A stretch of DNA of 44,504 bases from a phage, in sequence record PZ386946.1. One strand, given 5' to 3'. The notes under the pieces are model-generated. The model was not told where the DNA came from, searched no databases, and worked only from the letters and a program-made list of their open reading frames with translations. Positions 1 to 42,139 of the stretch are shown here, one piece after another. Position 1 is the first letter of the stretch. Each line of letters starts with the position of its first letter. Both the position numbers and the translations under genes were made by a program.

Positions 1-1566
1 ATGTCTTTAGTATGGGAAGAAATGACCATTCAGGAAAAGATGGCCGTTAAGGCGATATCAGAACACAGCTTCGAGGGCTTTCTTCGTTGCTGGTTCCAGA
101 TCACGCAAGGCGAGCGATACATCCCTAACTGGCATCACAAGTACTTGTGCAGAATAATTGACGAGATTATCGCAGGAGAGCGCAAGGACACCATCATTAA
201 CATAGCACCAGGCAGCGGAAAGACGGAAATTGCCTCAATCCACTTCCCGGCCTATTCGATGGTTAAGCTTAGGAAGGTGCGCAACCTTAACATCTCTTTT
301 GCTGACTCCCTGGTTAAGCGTAACTCGAAGCGAGTACGCGACCTTATCAAGTCTCAAGAATTTCAGTCACTCTGGCCATGCAAGTTTGGCACTTGCAAAG
401 ACGATGAGCTTCAGGTTCTTGATGAGAGTGGCAAGGTTAGATTTGAGTCAATATCAAAGGCGGCTGGAGGCCAGATTACTGGCGCTCGCGGTGGGTACAT
501 AACCGAAACATACAGCGGAGCCGTTCTTTTGGATGACTTTGACAAACCCGCAGATATGTTATCAGCAGTGTACCGATCGAATAATCACGTAATGCTTAAA
601 AATACGATTCGCTCACGTCGAGCCAGTTCTGTAAAAGGCAAAGCGACACCAATCATTTCGATACAGCAGCGGCTTCACGTCAATGACTCAACCTATTTCA
701 TGATGGAAGGCGGCATGGGTATCGAATTCGATTTGATTAAGATACCAGCATTAGTTACTGAGGATTACATTGATTCACTTCCTGACTGGATTAAAGATCA
801 GTTTGCTGATGACGTACTAAGCAGCGAATACATTGAGCGAGATGGCGTAAAGTACTACAGCTACTTTCCTAAAAAGGAATCCGTAAACGACCTGGTGGCA
901 ATGTGGGATAGCGACCCGTACACATTCCTTAGTCAATATCAGCAGGAGCCAGTAGCACTTGGTGGCAACCTAATTAACGTGGACTGGTTCCAGCGAATCA
1001 GTGATACGTTCAGACCTCCAGCTAAGTACGACTATCGATTCATAACTTGCGATACCGCAATGACCACTAAAAGTTACAGCGACTTCTCTGTTCTTCAGTT
1101 GTGGGGCTATAAAGATGCTAAGATTTACCTTATTGATCAGCGCAGGGGTAAATGGGAGGCCCCAGAGTTGGAGGCTGAACTGCTGGACTTCGAGAAGAAA
1201 TCAAGGGCAACCAGTCAGTCAGATGGTATCCTAAGAAAGATTATTATCGAGAAGAAAGCGTCTGGTATCGGCCTGATTCAATCAGCTGGCAGGGTTATGC
1301 GAACACCGATAGAGTCATACGTACCGGATAATGACAAGCTAACCAGGGTGATGAGTGCACTACCACAGATTAAGGCTGGTAACGTAGTTCTTCCAGAGTC
1401 ATCGCCGTGGCTAAACGGATTGCTCACTGAGGTTGCGGCTTTTACGGCAGATGACTCGCATAAGCACGACGACCAAATTGACTGTCTAACAATGGCGGCA
1501 AACCTTGTACTTAACATCGCGGATGATCCTAAGGCGAGACTAATGCGCATAGCAGGAATTAAATAG
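1..1566 (+). CDS. terminase large subunit
   Basis: 521 aa; Walker A-like APGSGKT and Walker B-like VLLDDFD in N-terminal ATPase, acidic C-terminal nuclease-like region; ATG at position 1 with RBS AAGAGGG at window end (circular permutation); directly follows small terminase across the window junction. Confidence 0.85.
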   Translation: MSLVWEEMTIQEKMAVKAISEHSFEGFLRCWFQITQGERYIPNWHHKYLCRIIDEIIAGERKDTIINIAPGSGKTEIASIHFPAYSMVKLRKVRNLNISFADSLVKRNSKRVRDLIKSQEFQSLWPCKFGTCKDDELQVLDESGKVRFESISKAAGGQITGARGGYITETYSGAVLLDDFDKPADMLSAVYRSNNHVMLKNTIRSRRASSVKGKATPIISIQQRLHVNDSTYFMMEGGMGIEFDLIKIPALVTEDYIDSLPDWIKDQFADDVLSSEYIERDGVKYYSYFPKKESVNDLVAMWDSDPYTFLSQYQQEPVALGGNLINVDWFQRISDTFRPPAKYDYRFITCDTAMTTKSYSDFSVLQLWGYKDAKIYLIDQRRGKWEAPELEAELLDFEKKSRATSQSDGILRKIIIEKKASGIGLIQSAGRVMRTPIESYVPDNDKLTRVMSALPQIKAGNVVLPESSPWLNGLLTEVAAFTADDSHKHDDQIDCLTMAANLVLNIADDPKARLMRIAGIK

Positions 1567-1606
1567 CACGAATTGCTAAACTAAGTCGCCACGGATGGCG
1601 TATAGT
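1562..1606 (+). promoter_or_regulatory. bipartite intergenic motif copy (AATAGCACGAATTGCTAAA - 22 nt - TATAGT)
   Basis: motif overlaps terminase stop codon TAG; spacer contains small hairpin CGCCA/TGGCG; followed by ATCGAAACGA leader and RBS. Confidence 0.5.
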
Positions 1607-1636
1607 TACTTCATCGAAACGAGAGGAGATAAACAA

Positions 1637-2026
1637 ATGACTACAATTTATTCAAAGGCATTATATCTTGGTAACATTGATAATGAAGACTGTGGATTCA
1701 CCGTTGGTAAGAAATATAGGGTTAACCGTTTTGATACTGATGATGAAAACTATTTTTGGTGCGTAGATGATCATGATGGTTACCGTTACATAAAAAACGG
1801 AGAATTCCACAAGTTTGATATCCGCGAAGAGGGAGAGGGTTTCGTAACTGAAAGCGAATGCGCAGCCAAAGCCACTGACAATAATAAAAAACCATATCTA
1901 AGATATTACATAAACGGACATGAGGTTGACGTGATTGAGTTCGGAAATGTTGGTCGTACTGTATATGCTCTTGATCGGGATGGCGTAAAGTGCGACACAA
2001 TCAAGTTCGAAGTAAAATTCGAGTAA
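1637..2026 (+). CDS. hypothetical protein (moron-like insert between terminase and portal)
   Basis: ORF track 1595..2026; chosen start is ATG 1637 preceded by GAGAGGAG RBS; upstream bipartite motif and downstream hairpin terminator; N-terminus MTTIYSK resembles the 30187 ORF. Confidence 0.55.
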   Translation: MTTIYSKALYLGNIDNEDCGFTVGKKYRVNRFDTDDENYFWCVDDHDGYRYIKNGEFHKFDIREEGEGFVTESECAAKATDNNKKPYLRYYINGHEVDVIEFGNVGRTVYALDRDGVKCDTIKFEVKFE

Positions 2027-2047
2027 TTAAAAGCCGTGTGATAAACT

Positions 2048-2071
2048 AGCCCCTACATGGGGCTTTTTTAT
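2048..2071 (+). terminator. rho-independent terminator
   Basis: hairpin AGCCCC-TACAT-GGGGCT followed by TTTTTTA. Confidence 0.6.
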
Positions 2072-2082
2072 TGGAGAAAAAC

Positions 2083-41343: not shown

Positions 41344-41526
41344 ATGATTAACCTAACAGATGATGAGTGCATTGCGGTAATAAAGGTTTCTGAGTTGATG
41401 AGCCAAAGATTTGACACACTCTCACTAAATCACGGTTGTGCCTGGGAGATTTTTGATGAGCATGTCAACATGGATGACTTCATGTCAGCAGCCATTAAGA
41501 TTAAAGAATATAAAATAGGTGAGTGA
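41344..41526 (+). CDS. hypothetical protein
   Basis: 60 aa ORF after motif copy. Confidence 0.4.
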   Translation: MINLTDDECIAVIKVSELMSQRFDTLSLNHGCAWEIFDEHVNMDDFMSAAIKIKEYKIGE

Positions 41527-41531
41527 ATAAG

Positions 41532-41723
41532 ATGATTACAATCAAACTGACAGAAGAAATGGCCGCTGAACTTCTTGATTCGCTAAGCCTGGTTAAAATT
41601 CGATACGGAACTTACCATAGAAGCGAGTCAGTAAGAGAGGTGGTAAAGCAAGTTAAGCAGCAGGTCGGAGCTGCCAAAATTGAATTGCAGAACACCACGT
41701 ACGATTTTAATAAAGGTGAATAA
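41532..41723 (+). CDS. hypothetical protein (tandem paralog A)
   Basis: ATG 41532; N-terminus MITIKLTEE similar to next ORF. Confidence 0.4.
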   Translation: MITIKLTEEMAAELLDSLSLVKIRYGTYHRSESVREVVKQVKQQVGAAKIELQNTTYDFNKGE

Positions 41724-41724
41724 G

Positions 41725-41955
41725 ATGATTACGATTAACCTGTCAGAGAAAGATGCAGAGGTTCTGAAGAGTGGCTGCAATTACCTTCGCTCAATTAAAG
41801 CATTCAACGATAATGAAGTTAATAAGAATGTCATTCAACAGATCAACAACCAACAATTCGACGTTAGTGACTTCGAGAGCTCAAGGCAGTACGAGGAGCT
41901 AAGCGTGCGGAATTCGGGCTACCTCACTAACTGGGATAAGGAGACTAAGAAATGA
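41725..41955 (+). CDS. hypothetical protein (tandem paralog B)
   Basis: ATG 41725 with AAAGGTG RBS; N-terminus MITINLSEKD. Confidence 0.4.
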   Translation: MITINLSEKDAEVLKSGCNYLRSIKAFNDNEVNKNVIQQINNQQFDVSDFESSRQYEELSVRNSGYLTNWDKETKK

Positions 41956-42098
41956 TTTACATCCATACGTACTACACTGGTAAATTTAACAGCGTGAAGC
42001 ATGTTCGGCTACATGAGAAGAAGAACGATGCTATTAAGCAACATGAAGTTCTTGGAGGTGTAGTTATTGAAGCAATGAAAACCAAAAACATTAAATAG
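41952..42098 (+). CDS. hypothetical small protein (48 aa)
   Basis: not in track; ATGA overlap with upstream stop; stop TAG lies in motif copy. Confidence 0.3.
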   Translation: MIYIHTYYTGKFNSVKHVRLHEKKNDAIKQHEVLGGVVIEAMKTKNIK

Positions 42099-42139
42099 CA
42101 CGAATTGCTAAAACGGTATTGGGGTAATTTGATATAGTT
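42094..42139 (+). promoter_or_regulatory. bipartite motif copy
   Basis: AATAGCACGAATTGCTAAA, 22 nt, TATAGTTACCCAATCTAAACGAACGAGG. Confidence 0.5.

What the first reader, a model, noticed from the sequence alone, without database searches (positions are those of the whole stretch)
1562..42139. Conserved bipartite intergenic motif in at least 12 copies, placed at gene 3' ends and about 65 nt before the next start codon
The unit AATAGCACGAATTGCTAAA, a fixed spacer of about 22 nt, TATAGTTA(C), then (C)ATCGAAACGA and an RBS recurs across the genome. Copies begin near 1562, 8681, 20081(-), 21948, 29820, 30106, 33682, 37630(-), 38721(-), 41270 and 42094, with degenerate copies at 25787 and 40458. 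Its orientation follows the downstream gene. The first half usually overlaps the upstream stop codon, so two unrelated ORFs (33145..33699 and 37657..38028) both end in INSTNC by reading through it. Several spacers contain a small hairpin. The spacing from TTGCTA to TATAGT (22 nt) is too long for a canonical sigma70 promoter. It may be a phage-specific promoter needing a phage factor, a binding site for the HTH protein 26833..27306, an RNA processing/terminator-restart element, or a recombination linker bounding gene cassettes (analogous in concept to T4 promoter-early stem-loop repeats).
Basis: seen in the sequence. Interest (0 to 1): 0.75.

Follow-up and report, generated by a model that had tools for sequence, protein, structure and literature searches.

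The report
Host marbox promoters in T1-like phage
The repeated intergenic motif is a set of about 15 phage promoters whose upstream half matches the DNA site ('marbox') bound by the host's MarA/SoxS/Rob stress regulators, placed exactly as in the E. coli micF promoter; if the host proteins do bind it, phage early gene expression is wired into the bacterial antibiotic and stress response, and a question the phage literature lists as open has a testable answer.

Summary
The window is a whole Rtp/T1-like Drexlerviridae genome. It carries 15 complete copies of the element, one reverse-oriented orphan and one degenerate copy.

The upstream half is already published as the "21-base intergenic repeat" aaATAGCACnnnTTGnTAAAA of phage TLS, also seen in T1 and Rtp (German et al. 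2024). That paper lists its function as an open question.

My reading is that the repeat is a consensus marbox, the asymmetric site for the host activators MarA, SoxS, Rob and RamA:
- It matches AYnGCACnnWnnRYYAAAYn and gcannwwntgnnaaa position by position.
- Its "variable" positions vary only within the marbox degeneracy.
- It lies in forward orientation exactly 18 bp before a sigma-70 -10 hexamer (TAnnnT, G at -14 in 84%).
- There is no -35 hexamer, and a conserved CA marks the predicted start.

This is the class II marbox geometry that I measured at E. coli micF and nfo. A matrix built only from Salmonella ChIP-seq sites finds 14 sites in the window (0.97 expected), all of them repeats.

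I found no phage AraC-like protein, and the recognition helix of the phage HTH protein is not conserved. The free spacer usually holds a stem-loop, often enclosing the -10; its role is unresolved.

Binding and activation by the host proteins are inferred, not shown.

The parts
1563..1636 (+). Marbox promoter cassette. Marbox 1563-1582 (ATAGCACGAATTGCTAAACT), 18-bp gap, -10 TATAGT 1601-1606, predicted start about 1613, leader ATCGAAACGA, start codon 1637 (129-aa virion protein-like ORF).
   Evidence: ChIP-derived matrix score 16.6, 0/20 mismatches to the marbox consensus. The TerL ORF stops at the TAG in the marbox.
8681..8757 (+). Marbox promoter cassette. Marbox 8681-8700, 18-bp gap, -10 TATAGT 8719-8724, predicted start about 8731, start codon 8758 (82 aa).
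   Evidence: matrix score 17.2. Exact match to the core consensus.
20041..20125 (-). Marbox promoter cassette. Marbox 20125-20106, 19-bp gap, extended -10 TGCTATAGT (hexamer 20086-20081), predicted start about 20074, start codon 20040.
   Evidence: matrix score 16.6.
21949..22021 (+). Marbox promoter cassette before the Erf-like recombinase. Marbox 21949-21968, 18-bp gap, -10 TATAGT 21987-21992, stem-loop enclosing the -10, start codon 22022.
   Evidence: matrix score 16.6, hairpin -9.1 kcal/mol.
26776..26856 (-). Marbox 26856-26837 lies inside the last codons of the HTH gene; 18-bp gap; -10 CATAAT 26818-26813 with TG. The -10 lies in the loop of terminator-like hairpin 26826-26803.
   Evidence: matrix score 13.7, hairpin -15.2 kcal/mol. 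One search lists the terminator-like site.
27319..27407 (+). Marbox 27319-27338 (ATAGCATTTTTTGTTAAAAG), -10 TAGTAT/TATTGT at 19-20 bp, start codon 27408. It lies in the 5' leader of the divergent HTH gene.
   Evidence: The same arrangement occurs in T1, TLS and ACG-M12.
29821..29896 (+). Marbox promoter cassette. Marbox 29821-29840, 18-bp gap, -10 TATTAT 29859-29864 in the loop of a 14-bp stem, start codon 29897 (68 aa).
   Evidence: matrix score 16.6, 0/20 mismatches, hairpin -17.5 kcal/mol.
30107..30186 (+). Marbox promoter cassette. Marbox 30107-30126, 18-bp gap, -10 TATAGT 30145-30150, stem GATGGGGTA/TACTCTATC around it (with G-U pairs), start codon 30187.
   Evidence: matrix score 16.6, hairpin -10.7 kcal/mol.
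33683..33767 (+). Marbox promoter cassette ahead of the lysis region. Marbox 33683-33702, 18-bp gap, -10 TATCAT 33721-33726, start codon 33768.
   Evidence: The upstream ORF ends INSTNC* inside the marbox.
37593..37673 (-). Marbox promoter cassette. Marbox 37673-37654 (core GCACAAATTGCTAAA, identical to the best SoxS ChIP site on Salmonella plasmid pSLT), 18-bp gap, -10 TATATT 37635-37630, terminator-like stem in the spacer, start codon 37592.
   Evidence: matrix score 17.5.
38695..38765 (-). Marbox promoter cassette, the first promoter of the leftward early arm. Marbox 38765-38746, 19-bp gap, -10 TATAGT 38726-38721, start codon 38694.
   Evidence: matrix score 17.1.
40458..40531 (+). Marbox 40458-40477, 18-bp gap, extended -10 TGGCATAAT (hexamer 40496-40501), stem-loop enclosing the -10.
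   Evidence: matrix score 16.0, hairpin -9.4 kcal/mol.
41271..41343 (+). Marbox promoter cassette. Marbox 41271-41290, terminator-like stem 41286-41305 in the spacer, extended -10 TGTTATAGT (hexamer 41309-41314), start codon 41344.
   Evidence: 0/20 mismatches.
42095..42168 (+). Marbox promoter cassette. Marbox 42095-42114, 18-bp gap, extended -10 TGATATAGT (hexamer 42133-42138) inside a stem-loop, start codon 42169.
   Evidence: matrix score 16.6.
43008..43081 (+). Marbox 43008-43027, 18-bp gap, -10 TATAAT 43046-43051, start codon 43082.
   Evidence: matrix score 14.8, 0/20 mismatches.
37165..37238 (-). Degenerate copy before the DUF3987 gene. AATAGCACAAATTTATAAT, then 20 nt, then extended -10 TGATATAAT inside an 11-bp stem; start codon 37164.
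   Evidence: It scores below the matrix threshold.
25788..25807 (+). Orphan marbox in reverse orientation to the flanking minus-strand genes. It overlaps the predicted start of an extended -10 promoter (TGCTACAAT, 25818-25810, minus strand) of the side tail fibre gene.
   Evidence: It is conserved at the same place in T1, Rtp and ACG-M12.

Best explanation
Each copy is a compact promoter cassette recognised by host sigma-70 RNA polymerase.

The conserved upstream half, (A)ATAGCAC-nnW-TTG-Y-TAAAA, is a consensus marbox. A marbox is the asymmetric 20-bp site to which a monomer of a host MarA, SoxS, Rob or (in Klebsiella) RamA activator binds through two helix-turn-helix motifs, one reading GCAC and one reading YAAA. 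Here the marbox lies in the 'forward' orientation over the place where a -35 hexamer would be, centred about -41. It ends exactly 18 bp before the -10 hexamer (TATAGT-like, frequently preceded by TG or G at -14). This is the class II marbox arrangement of E. coli micF and nfo.

In that arrangement the bound activator replaces the -35 contact and recruits or stabilises RNA polymerase. Transcription would start at the conserved A of C-A-TCGAAACGA, giving every cassette the same A-rich unstructured leader before its ribosome-binding site.

A class II promoter places no sequence demand on the 18-bp spacer or the discriminator. The phage uses that free space for a stem-loop, which is terminator-like in some copies and encloses the -10 in about half. 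Only transcripts reading through from the upstream gene can form it.

Shown here: the sequence match, orientation, spacing, lack of a -35, sigma-70-type -10, family-wide conservation, and absence of a phage AraC-like protein among those tested. Inferred: binding by MarA/SoxS/Rob/RamA, activation, the start site, and the role of the stem-loop.

The extended -10 probably gives basal activity, so the host activators would boost or condition early expression rather than be indispensable for it.
For: 1. Published marbox definitions: AYnGCACnnWnnRYYAAAYn (Martin et al. 1999, my recollection) and 5'-gcannwwntgnnaaa-3' (PMC12052159). The window has 14 exact matches to the latter against 0.95 expected, and 13 of them are repeats. 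Of 443 unique family copies, 359 match it perfectly.

2. Positions left free when I collected the copies obey the marbox degeneracy. Positions 9 and 10 are A/T in 98% and 97% of copies. Position 14 is C/T in 91%. Position 8 takes any base.

3. A matrix built only from 85 Salmonella ChIP-seq sites for MarA/SoxS/Rob/RamA (PMC10268841) finds 14 sites in the window above the 75th percentile of real sites, against 0.97 expected. All 14 are repeats, and 12 exceed the 90th percentile. One is identical to the best SoxS site.

4. Geometry. At E. coli micF I measured marbox ACAGCACTGAATGTCAAAAC, an 18-bp gap, then TAGAAT. nfo also has an 18-bp gap. In the phages the gap is 18 bp in 49 of the 62 matrix hits that have a -10, across four genomes. 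The orientation equals micF (5'CACT-7X-AAA, site at about -41). Class II is defined as a forward marbox overlapping the -35.

5. Core promoter. The -10 starts at position 39 in 278/443 copies, G is at -14 in 262/311, TG in 137/311, and the match to TTGACA at 16-18 bp is at most 3/6 in 292/311. C/A at positions 50/51 occur in 65% and 75%. Class II marbox promoters characteristically lack a -35.

6. The motif is identical in phages of Escherichia, Klebsiella and Vibrio, while the phage HTH recognition helix varies.

7. No phage MarA-like protein: tblastn with MarA gives a best E of 1.2; Pfam and PHROGs give no AraC-type hit on 17 ORFs; the DUF7174 model has no significant PDB match and the gp07-like model is all-beta.
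Against: - There are no experimental data: no mapped transcript 5' ends, no binding assay.
- A Keio single-gene screen with TLS-like phage LL5 did not recover rob, marA or soxS (PMC7229145). So no single one of them is essential for plating. The three are redundant, and mild effects would have been missed.
- In unstressed cells MarA and SoxS are scarce and Rob is largely sequestered. That is awkward for promoters serving a very fast lytic cycle unless basal extended -10 activity suffices.
- The repeat is conserved more strictly than a marbox requires (positions 1-3, 11, 15 and 19). This could reflect selection for maximal affinity, gene conversion between copies, or a different binding protein with overlapping specificity.
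- I did not verify that Vibrio hosts encode a MarA/Rob homologue.
- Position 19 is A rather than Y, although micF also has A there.
Confidence: 0.6

Rival explanations
1. The repeat is the site of a phage-encoded DNA-binding protein that activates or represses the adjacent extended -10 promoters. Candidates are the conserved P22-Cro-like HTH protein (26833-27306, minus strand), the first early gene product DUF7174, or an unrecognised small early protein. The marbox resemblance would be coincidence or mimicry.
For: - The HTH gene is a core gene of all 825 related phage records.
- A repeat sits in its own 5' leader in every genome examined, an arrangement typical of autoregulation.
- The core TAGCA-N5-TGCTA is a 5-bp dyad centred at -42.
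- The repeat is more strictly conserved than a marbox needs.
- Canonical sigma-70 promoters precede the HTH gene and DUF7174, so both could be made first.
Against: - The HTH recognition helix is among the least conserved parts of the protein, whereas the DNA motif is invariant, including in Vibrio phage Vc1 at about 50% protein identity.
- The motif is asymmetric and strictly oriented, unlike a dimer operator.
- The dyad reading does not explain the invariant C7, T11 and AAAA.
- The DUF7174 model has no DNA-binding fold match, and the gp07-like model is all-beta.
- A chance match to all specified marbox positions plus the class II orientation and the 18-bp gap is very unlikely.
Confidence: 0.15
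2. The marboxes act mainly as a sink, not as activator sites. Roughly 15 optimal sites per genome, multiplied by replication, would titrate MarA/SoxS/Rob away from host promoters (acrAB-tolC, micF and others). Alternatively they act as roadblocks in the manner of stoperators.
For: - The sites score above the 90th percentile of genuine host sites, and their density is orders of magnitude above the host chromosome.
- Some marboxes are not in activating positions: a reverse one over the tail-fibre promoter start at 25788, and DR-like sequences directly before the terS and J start codons in T1 and TLS.
- The TLS authors raised the stoperator analogy.
Against: A sink or roadblock needs no fixed phasing. 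Yet the gap to the -10 is exactly 18 bp in about 80% of strong sites, the orientation always follows the gene, and there is never a -35. That is the signature of direct activator-polymerase contact. Titration could still be an additional effect.
Confidence: 0.1
3. RNA polymerase itself reads the upstream half, as an UP-like element for the alpha C-terminal domain or as a displaced -35 (TTGCTA), so these are simply strong constitutive early promoters.
For: - TTGnTA matches 4/6 of TTGACA in 274/311 copies.
- The element is followed by an A-tract.
- The TLS paper proposed UP-like enhancers.
- Early promoters must work at once on injected DNA.
Against: - TTGnTA lies 22 bp from the -10, five base pairs (half a turn) too far for sigma region 4.
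- The invariant GCAC block is not A/T-rich, and the sequence does not fit either UP subsite at its proper position (direct reading).
- The one canonical promoter with the same -10 and leader (39326-39354) uses a true -35 at 17 bp and has no repeat.
Confidence: 0.06
4. The element works as RNA or as a recombination module. The repeat would be a boxB-like hairpin (UAGCA-N5-UGYUA), which with the second stem-loop forms a processing or antitermination signal. Alternatively, the repeats exist mainly as homology patches that shuffle gene cassettes, like T4 PeSL elements.
For: - Position 14 is C or U, so G4 can pair as G-C or G-U.
- Spacer stem-loops show excess stability (-11.2 against -7.1 kcal/mol in arm-swap controls, p = 1e-37) and a sense-strand G-U bias (30:3 against 55:20).
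- The repeat supplies stops in all three frames.
- Nearly identical cassettes occur at non-orthologous places, and one lies in a Vequintavirinae genome.
Against: - The repeat hairpin is weak (-1.3 to -3.7 kcal/mol). Its stem bases never covary because they never vary.
- There is no Rfam match.
- Neither RNA function nor recombination explains the fixed 18-bp distance to a TAnnnT hexamer, or the position-by-position marbox match.
- The stem-loops have no fixed register, and few have U-tracts.
Confidence: 0.05

Closest known systems
Class II MarA/SoxS/Rob/RamA-dependent promoters of enterobacteria (micF, nfo, fumC, lpxC P2)
   Same: They share an asymmetric 20-bp marbox in forward orientation over the -35 position, 18 bp (17-19) before a sigma-70 -10, with no recognisable -35 and the site centred about -41. 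The micF marbox ACAGCACTGAATGTCAAAAC compares with the phage ATAGCACGAATTGCTAAAAC.
   Different: - The phage sites lie on a virulent phage genome at 13-20 copies per 45-49 kb.
- They are nearly invariant and close to the optimal sequence, whereas host marboxes are degenerate.
- They are often combined with an extended -10, a nested stem-loop and a shared leader.
- Binding by the host factors is untested.
The 21-nt direct repeats of phage TLS (German, DeGiulio, Ramsey, Kropinski and Misra 2024, PMC11447400), also noted in T1, Rtp and Rogue1
   Same: It is the same element: consensus aaATAGCACnnnTTGnTAAAA, intergenic, co-oriented with transcription, about 76 nt before start codons, with A/T/G subclasses defined by the middle triplet.
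   Different: That paper leaves the function open, suggesting stoperators, enhancer sites or UP elements. It does not report the -10 at a fixed distance, the stem-loop, or the marbox identity.
T4-type PeSL (promoter-early stem-loop) cassettes (Arbiol et al. 2010, from my own knowledge)
   Same: Both are short repeated modules that combine an early promoter with a stem-loop, flank small early ORFs and plausibly promote modular shuffling.
   Different: The sequences are unrelated. T4 early promoters have a normal -35 plus UP-like tracts and need no activator site. In the present element the stem-loop is nested inside the promoter rather than beside it.
Mycobacteriophage L5 stoperators
   Same: Both are many copies of one asymmetric site, intergenic and in one orientation relative to transcription.
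   Different: Stoperators bind the phage's own repressor in lysogens, block elongation and have no fixed phasing to a -10. The present phage is virulent, and its sites are phased to the base pair with a promoter.
galP1 / CRP and lambda PRM / cI at OR2 (from my own knowledge)
   Same: In both, an activator centred near -41.5/-42 overlaps or abuts the -35 region and contacts polymerase; galP1 also has an extended -10.
   Different: Those activators are dimers on symmetric sites. The present site is asymmetric and matches a monomeric dual-HTH activator.

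Membership tests
Class II marbox (MarA/SoxS/Rob/RamA) promoter | Asymmetric marbox sequence: AYnGCACnnWnnRYYAAAYn, core gcannwwntgnnaaa | tested here: met
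   The window has 14 exact core matches against 0.95 expected. Of 443 family copies, 359 match perfectly and 350 have at most 1 mismatch to the 20-mer; the only systematic mismatch is A at position 19, as in micF. A ChIP-derived matrix ranks the repeats above the 75th-90th percentile of real sites.
Class II marbox (MarA/SoxS/Rob/RamA) promoter | Forward orientation: GCAC distal and AAA proximal to the start site, as at micF | tested here: met
   All 15 complete copies in the window, and the family consensus, read GCAC...AAA toward the -10 and the gene. micF has the same orientation.
Class II marbox (MarA/SoxS/Rob/RamA) promoter | Marbox overlaps the -35 position at a fixed distance from the -10 (site centred about -41) | tested here: met
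   I measured an 18-bp gap at micF and nfo, and 17 or 19 bp at fumC. The phage gap is 18 bp in 11/14 (window), 14/18, 11/13 and 13/17 strong sites. The predicted centre is -40.5 to -41.5.
Class II marbox (MarA/SoxS/Rob/RamA) promoter | Sigma-70 -10 element present; no recognisable -35 hexamer | tested here: met
   A TAnnnT hexamer sits at a fixed position in 63% of copies (76% within -1 to +3 nt), with G at -14 in 84%. The best TTGACA match at 16-18 bp is at most 3/6 in 94%. The literature says class II promoters average 1.9/6.
Class II marbox (MarA/SoxS/Rob/RamA) promoter | Bound by MarA/SoxS/Rob/RamA and activated by them | not testable with these tools
   This needs EMSA or footprinting, in vitro transcription and reporter assays. 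The only related data are a Keio screen with TLS-like LL5, which did not recover rob, marA or soxS singly. That does not test redundancy or partial effects.
Drexlerviridae 21-nt intergenic direct repeat (TLS DR1-18) | Consensus aaATAGCACnnnTTGnTAAAA, co-oriented with genes, about 76 nt before start codons | tested here: met
   (71-89 nt in this window).
Sigma-54 promoter (-24 GG / -12 GC) | TGGCAC-N5-TTGCW with invariant GG and fixed spacing | tested here: not met
   The repeat reads TAGCAC-N3-TTGCT: AG instead of GG, and 2 nt too short (direct reading). The only exact sigma-54 consensus in the window is unrelated (10407).
UP element | A/T-rich tracts at -57 to -38 read by the alpha C-terminal domain | tested here: not met
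   G4, C5 and C7 are 95-100% invariant and lie within -47 to -44. The A-tract lies at -35 to -32, outside the UP subsites.
Operator of the phage Cro-like HTH protein | Recognition helix conserved together with its site | tested here: not met
   The site is invariant across the family, including Vibrio phage Vc1. The HTH helices are variable, and only the N-terminal DKRxxNGNNG motif is invariant.
L5-type stoperator | Site of a phage repressor that blocks elongation; no required phasing with a promoter | tested here: inconclusive
   The orientation bias is shared, but base-pair-exact phasing to a -10 and a virulent lifestyle argue against it. A few off-promoter copies (25788; T1 8361 and 25020) could act this way.
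T4-type PeSL mobile regulatory cassette | Early promoter plus stem-loop repeated around small ORFs, associated with gene shuffling | tested here: inconclusive
   Promoter plus stem-loop is present in 84-88% of copies. The same cassette occurs at non-orthologous sites and in a Vequintavirinae genome. I did not analyse breakpoints.
Structured RNA element (nut/boxB-like or an Rfam family) | Stable conserved hairpin with covariation | tested here: not met
   The repeat hairpin is -1.3 to -3.7 kcal/mol. No Rfam family matches. The spacer stem-loops have no fixed register.

The most novel reading that the evidence does not exclude
T1-like phages (Drexlerviridae) have made the host mar/sox/rob system part of their developmental programme. 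Early and middle genes would be driven by 13-20 optimal class II marbox promoters, so that antibiotic, oxidative or bile stress, or marR/ramR/soxR resistance mutations, raise phage expression. The replicating genomes would at the same time soak up MarA/SoxS/Rob. That would collapse the host efflux and stress response and relieve reverse-oriented marboxes that sit on late (tail-fibre) promoters, helping to time the early-to-late switch.
Probability: 0.18. Interest if true: 0.88.

Novelty: new member of a known kind. Interest (0 to 1): 0.72.

Why it matters
[quoted passage not shown] Reading it as a class II marbox gives a specific hypothesis that standard reagents can test: purified MarA/SoxS/Rob, a rob marA soxS triple mutant, and salicylate, paraquat, dipyridyl or bile salts.
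- **A link between virulent phages and the resistance regulon.** If true, it would be a family-wide case of virulent phages wiring their early transcription to the host's multiple-antibiotic-resistance and oxidative-stress regulators.
- **Relevance to phage therapy.** Klebsiella Webervirus and E. coli T1-like phages are common cocktail components. Clinical MDR strains often overproduce MarA, RamA or SoxS, and the hypothesis predicts that this changes phage gene expression.
- **Phage-antibiotic interactions.** It predicts interactions in either direction, and possible titration of efflux regulators by phage DNA.
- **Engineering.** The cassettes are compact, portable promoters that would be inducible if the hypothesis holds.

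Tried and rejected
- **Phage HTH as binder.** Rejected as the favourite. It is Pfam P22_Cro-like, but its recognition helix is variable while the DNA motif is invariant.
- **Dimer operator or lambda-cI-like reading of the TAGCA-N5-TGCTA dyad.** It was attractive because of the centre at -42, but it does not explain the asymmetry or the strict orientation.
- **Sigma-54, UP element, IHF, Fis, CRP, lambda cII repeats, T4 MotA box.** I compared each by eye with the family logo. All fail on spacing or on invariant bases.
- **RNA hairpin in the repeat.** Too weak.
- **Rfam.** The only hit is a tRNA.
- **Column-wise covariation of the spacer stem-loop.** No fixed register emerged, so I built no covariance model. 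Only the arm-swap energy test and the G-U bias support a structure.
- **Intrinsic terminator as a general reading of the stem-loops.** Only 4/93 enclosing stems and 17/60 upstream stems have T-rich tails.
- **Origin from a host promoter or prophage.** There is no blastn match in 5,426 complete E. coli genomes.
- **A phage-encoded MarA mimic.** tblastn, Pfam and PHROGs found nothing. AlphaFold models of DUF7174 (no PDB match at E < 0.001) and of the gp07-like protein (all-beta) gave no support.
- **Literature.** The Rtp (2006) and T1 (2004) genome papers are not held. No held paper links marbox, Rob, MarA or SoxS to T1-like phages.

Full report
**What the window is.** Megablast places it in Drexlerviridae (Braunvirinae; Rtp, ACG-M12 and JulesPiccard-like) at about 87-90% identity to its nearest relatives. 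It is a complete, circularly permuted genome opened at the large terminase gene.

**Checking the observation.** The 19-mer AATAGCACGAATTGCTAAA occurs 11 times at up to 3 mismatches, against 0.01 expected. The TTGCTA-N22-TATAGT arrangement recurs. A systematic scan gives 15 complete cassettes, with marbox starts at 1563+, 8681+, 20125-, 21949+, 26856-, 27319+, 29821+, 30107+, 33683+, 37673-, 38765-, 40458+, 41271+, 42095+ and 43008+. There is also a degenerate copy at 37238- and a reverse-oriented orphan at 25788+. Every complete copy points toward the next gene, and the start codon lies 71-89 nt after the repeat start. The "INSTNC" tails are real. Upstream ORFs terminate at TAA(-2), TAG(2) or TAA(15) of the repeat, so it offers a stop in each frame.

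**Prior knowledge.** The upstream half is already described. German et al. 2024 (PMC11447400) report 18 intergenic 21-nt direct repeats in phage TLS with consensus aaATAGCACnnnTTGnTAAAA. They are co-oriented with transcription and lie about 76 nt before start codons. Similar repeats in T1, Rtp and Rogue1 are mentioned as unpublished. The authors found only three canonical sigma-70 promoters in TLS and list the function of the repeat among the open questions for T1-like phages. Their suggestions were stoperators, enhancer sites or UP elements. No other held paper mentions the motif.

**Family-wide anatomy.** I found the element in T1, Rtp and ACG-M12. A pattern scan of viral contigs returned many 41-52 kb contigs with several copies each. 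Pooling gave 505 instances, 443 of them unique. Without any gaps, the columns show four features.
- Positions 1-18 (ATAGCAC nnn TTG n TAAA) are nearly invariant.
- A hexamer at positions 39-44 has the sigma-70 signature: T 67%, A 81%, and a final T 82%, with variable middle bases.
- G at position 37 (that is, -14) occurs in 84% of copies that have the hexamer, and TG in 44%.
- C/A at positions 50/51 occur in 65% and 75%, where a start site is expected.

The hexamer begins exactly at position 39 in 278/443 copies and at positions 38-42 in 338. Nothing resembling TTGACA lies 16-18 bp upstream (at most 3/6 matches in 292/311). These are therefore sigma-70 promoters, often of the extended -10 type. 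They lack a -35 and carry a conserved block at about -50 to -32.

**Identifying the block.** I first considered the phage Cro-like HTH protein. The core TAGCA-N5-TGCTA is a dyad centred at -42, and a repeat lies in the HTH gene's own leader in every genome. An alignment of 16 homologues counts against this. The HTH helices are among the least conserved parts of the protein, and only an N-terminal DKRxxNGNNG motif is invariant. Yet the DNA motif is letter-for-letter the same even in Vibrio phage Vc1. That pattern points to a conserved host component.

The repeat then proved to match the marbox position by position. The marbox is the site of the monomeric dual-HTH activators MarA, SoxS, Rob and RamA. 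Its consensus is AYnGCACnnWnnRYYAAAYn (Martin et al. 1999, from my memory), and the core used by the Grainger laboratory is 5'-gcannwwntgnnaaa-3' (PMC12052159).

**Tests of the marbox reading.**
- The published core has 14 exact matches in the window against 0.95 expected, and 13 of them are repeats.
- Positions that were unconstrained when I collected copies obey the marbox degeneracy. Positions 9 and 10 are A/T in 98% and 97%, position 14 is C/T in 91%, and position 8 is any base.
- I built a weight matrix only from 85 MarA/SoxS/Rob/RamA ChIP-seq sites of Salmonella (PMC10268841). It finds 14 sites in the window above the 75th percentile of the real sites, against 0.97 expected. All are repeats, 12 are above the 90th percentile, and one (GCACAAATTGCTAAA) is identical to the best SoxS site of that study.
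- The same matrix finds 19, 13 and 20 sites in ACG-M12, Rtp and T1. Of the 66 sites in the four genomes, 62 have a -10 downstream, and 49 of those have a gap of exactly 18 bp.

**Geometry.** By the literature, class II marbox promoters have a forward-oriented marbox overlapping the -35. At micF the site is at about -41 and reads 5'CACT-7X-AAA toward the start. Such promoters lack a recognisable -35, because the activator displaces sigma region 4. I measured the archetype directly in E. coli K-12. The micF marbox ACAGCACTGAATGTCAAAAC is followed by 18 bp, then TAGAAT, and the annotated RNA start lies 7 nt later. nfo also has an 18-bp gap before TATCAT, and fumC has 17 or 19. The phage cassettes reproduce this to the base pair: the marbox occupies positions 1-20, 18 bp follow, and the -10 sits at 39-44. 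Even the A at marbox position 19, the only systematic departure from the 1999 consensus, is shared with micF.

**Is the activator phage-encoded?** I found no sign of it. tblastn with E. coli MarA gives nothing better than E = 1.2. Pfam and PHROGs scans of 17 early or unknown ORFs give no AraC-type hit. An AlphaFold model of the first early protein (DUF7174, pLDDT 76) has no significant PDB match, and the gp07-like protein is all-beta. The T1 record, annotated by its depositors with HHpred, also lists no AraC-like protein.

**Most likely mechanism.** Host MarA/SoxS/Rob (RamA in Klebsiella) binds the repeat and activates an otherwise -35-less promoter by the class II route. Transcription starts at the A of CATCGAAACGA. 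The sequence-level fit is shown. Binding, activation and the start site are inferred.

**Cautions.**
- A Keio screen with the TLS-like phage LL5 recovered only receptor, LPS and chaperone genes, not rob, marA or soxS (PMC7229145). No single activator is therefore essential for plating. Redundancy and mild effects remain untested.
- The frequent extended -10 suggests that basal activity exists, so the marbox would act as a booster or conditional input.
- MarA and SoxS are scarce, and Rob is largely sequestered, in unstressed cells.
- The repeat is more strictly conserved than a marbox needs.
- I did not verify MarA/Rob homologues in Vibrio hosts.

**The second, variable feature: a stem-loop.** Folding positions 19-58 gives a mean of -11.2 kcal/mol. 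Joining the 5' part of one copy to the 3' part of another gives -7.1 (p = 1e-37). In a non-redundant set of 182 copies, 93 have a stem enclosing the -10, 60 have one just upstream of it and 26 have none. Within stems, G-T mismatches outnumber A-C by 30:3, against 55:20 in swap controls (Fisher p = 0.03). This hints at selection on the sense-strand RNA, that is, on read-through transcripts. There is no fixed register, and only 21 of 153 stems have T-rich tails, so most are not classical terminators. Some clearly are: at 26826-26803 a terminator holds the primase promoter's -10 in its loop. My interpretation is that the class II design frees the 18-bp spacer and discriminator of sequence constraints. 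The phage would nest there a 3'-end or insulating stem-loop for the upstream transcript, which transcripts initiated at the cassette cannot form. This step is inference with moderate support.

**Cassette behaviour.** Near-identical cassettes, spacer included, occur at non-orthologous positions in related genomes. One complete cassette sits in a 145-kb Vequintavirinae phage. None is found in 5,426 E. coli genomes. The three-frame stops and shared leader fit a portable "stop, promoter, leader" module, conceptually like T4 PeSL elements. That would be a consequence rather than the reason for the sequence.

**Verdict.** As a repeat it is already known. Its identification as a set of class II marbox promoters is, as far as the held literature shows, new. 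It makes an explicitly open question directly testable.

Noticed in passing
window 25788-25818: A consensus marbox lies in reverse orientation to the flanking minus-strand genes. It covers the predicted start of an extended -10 promoter (TGCTACAAT, 25818-25810, minus strand) of the 875-aa side tail fibre gene, just after the bidirectional terminator at 25836-25853. The same arrangement occurs in T1 (34901), Rtp (33761) and ACG-M12 (32097). It is a candidate repression site, or a short antisense promoter.
   Followed up: partly
window 15239-15258; L003 (T1) 25020 and 8361: The first 20 nt of the J-like tail tip gene (ATGGCACAAATGATCAAAAC) match the marbox at 19/20 positions. T1 and TLS carry repeat-like sequences directly before the start codons of J and terS, with no -10 downstream. 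These could be chance or a roadblock-type use of the same site.
   Followed up: no
window 26803-26826 (minus strand): A terminator-like hairpin with a T-tract after the HTH gene carries in its loop the -10 hexamer (CATAAT) of the primase promoter. Read-through transcripts can form the hairpin, but transcripts started there cannot.
   Followed up: partly
window 38770-39394: A 625-nt non-coding region separates the two divergent early arms. It contains a (TAT)8 microsatellite at 39077-39101 and a canonical sigma-70 promoter (TTGATA-17-TATTAT with TG, 39326-39354). That promoter shares the -10, discriminator and leader style of the cassettes but has a true -35 instead of a marbox. This is probably the pac / terminal redundancy region.
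   Followed up: partly
window 26833-27306 (minus strand): The 'transcriptional regulator' between primase and helicase has a P22-Cro-like HTH that is poorly conserved. Its N-terminal motif DKRxxNGNNGxxRxxDxxxR is invariant across the family. Its position suggests a replication initiator or loader rather than a transcription factor.
   Followed up: partly
L124 (Escherichia phage A5-4, Vequintavirinae) 4000-4091 and 5650-5700: One complete marbox cassette (TTAGCACTAATTGCTAAA, 20 nt, TACTAT, ...ATCGAAAC) sits in an unrelated 145-kb phage before a small ORF. Nearby, a hairpin-enclosed TGTTATAGT promoter has a similar leader but no marbox.
   Followed up: partly
window 43593-43670: A tRNA-Arg (anticodon TCT), as in related phages.
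   Followed up: yes
window 10407-10422: An exact match to the sigma-54 -24/-12 consensus (TGGCACGTCGCTTGCT) lies inside the tape-measure ORF. About 0.04 such matches are expected by chance, and I did not pursue it.
   Followed up: no
window 37239-37592 (minus strand): The homologue of T1 gp07, which the T1 record annotates as 'HTH domain-containing, RipR-like', is predicted here as an all-beta protein (pLDDT 77). The HTH annotation is therefore doubtful.
   Followed up: partly
window 19704-20040 (minus strand): The gene after the 20125 cassette starts like the Rtp45 Cor-like lipoprotein (ATGACTAACTTAATC...), but the open frame is only 34 codons and is followed by a separate 76-codon frame. This may be a frameshift or a split gene.
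   Followed up: no
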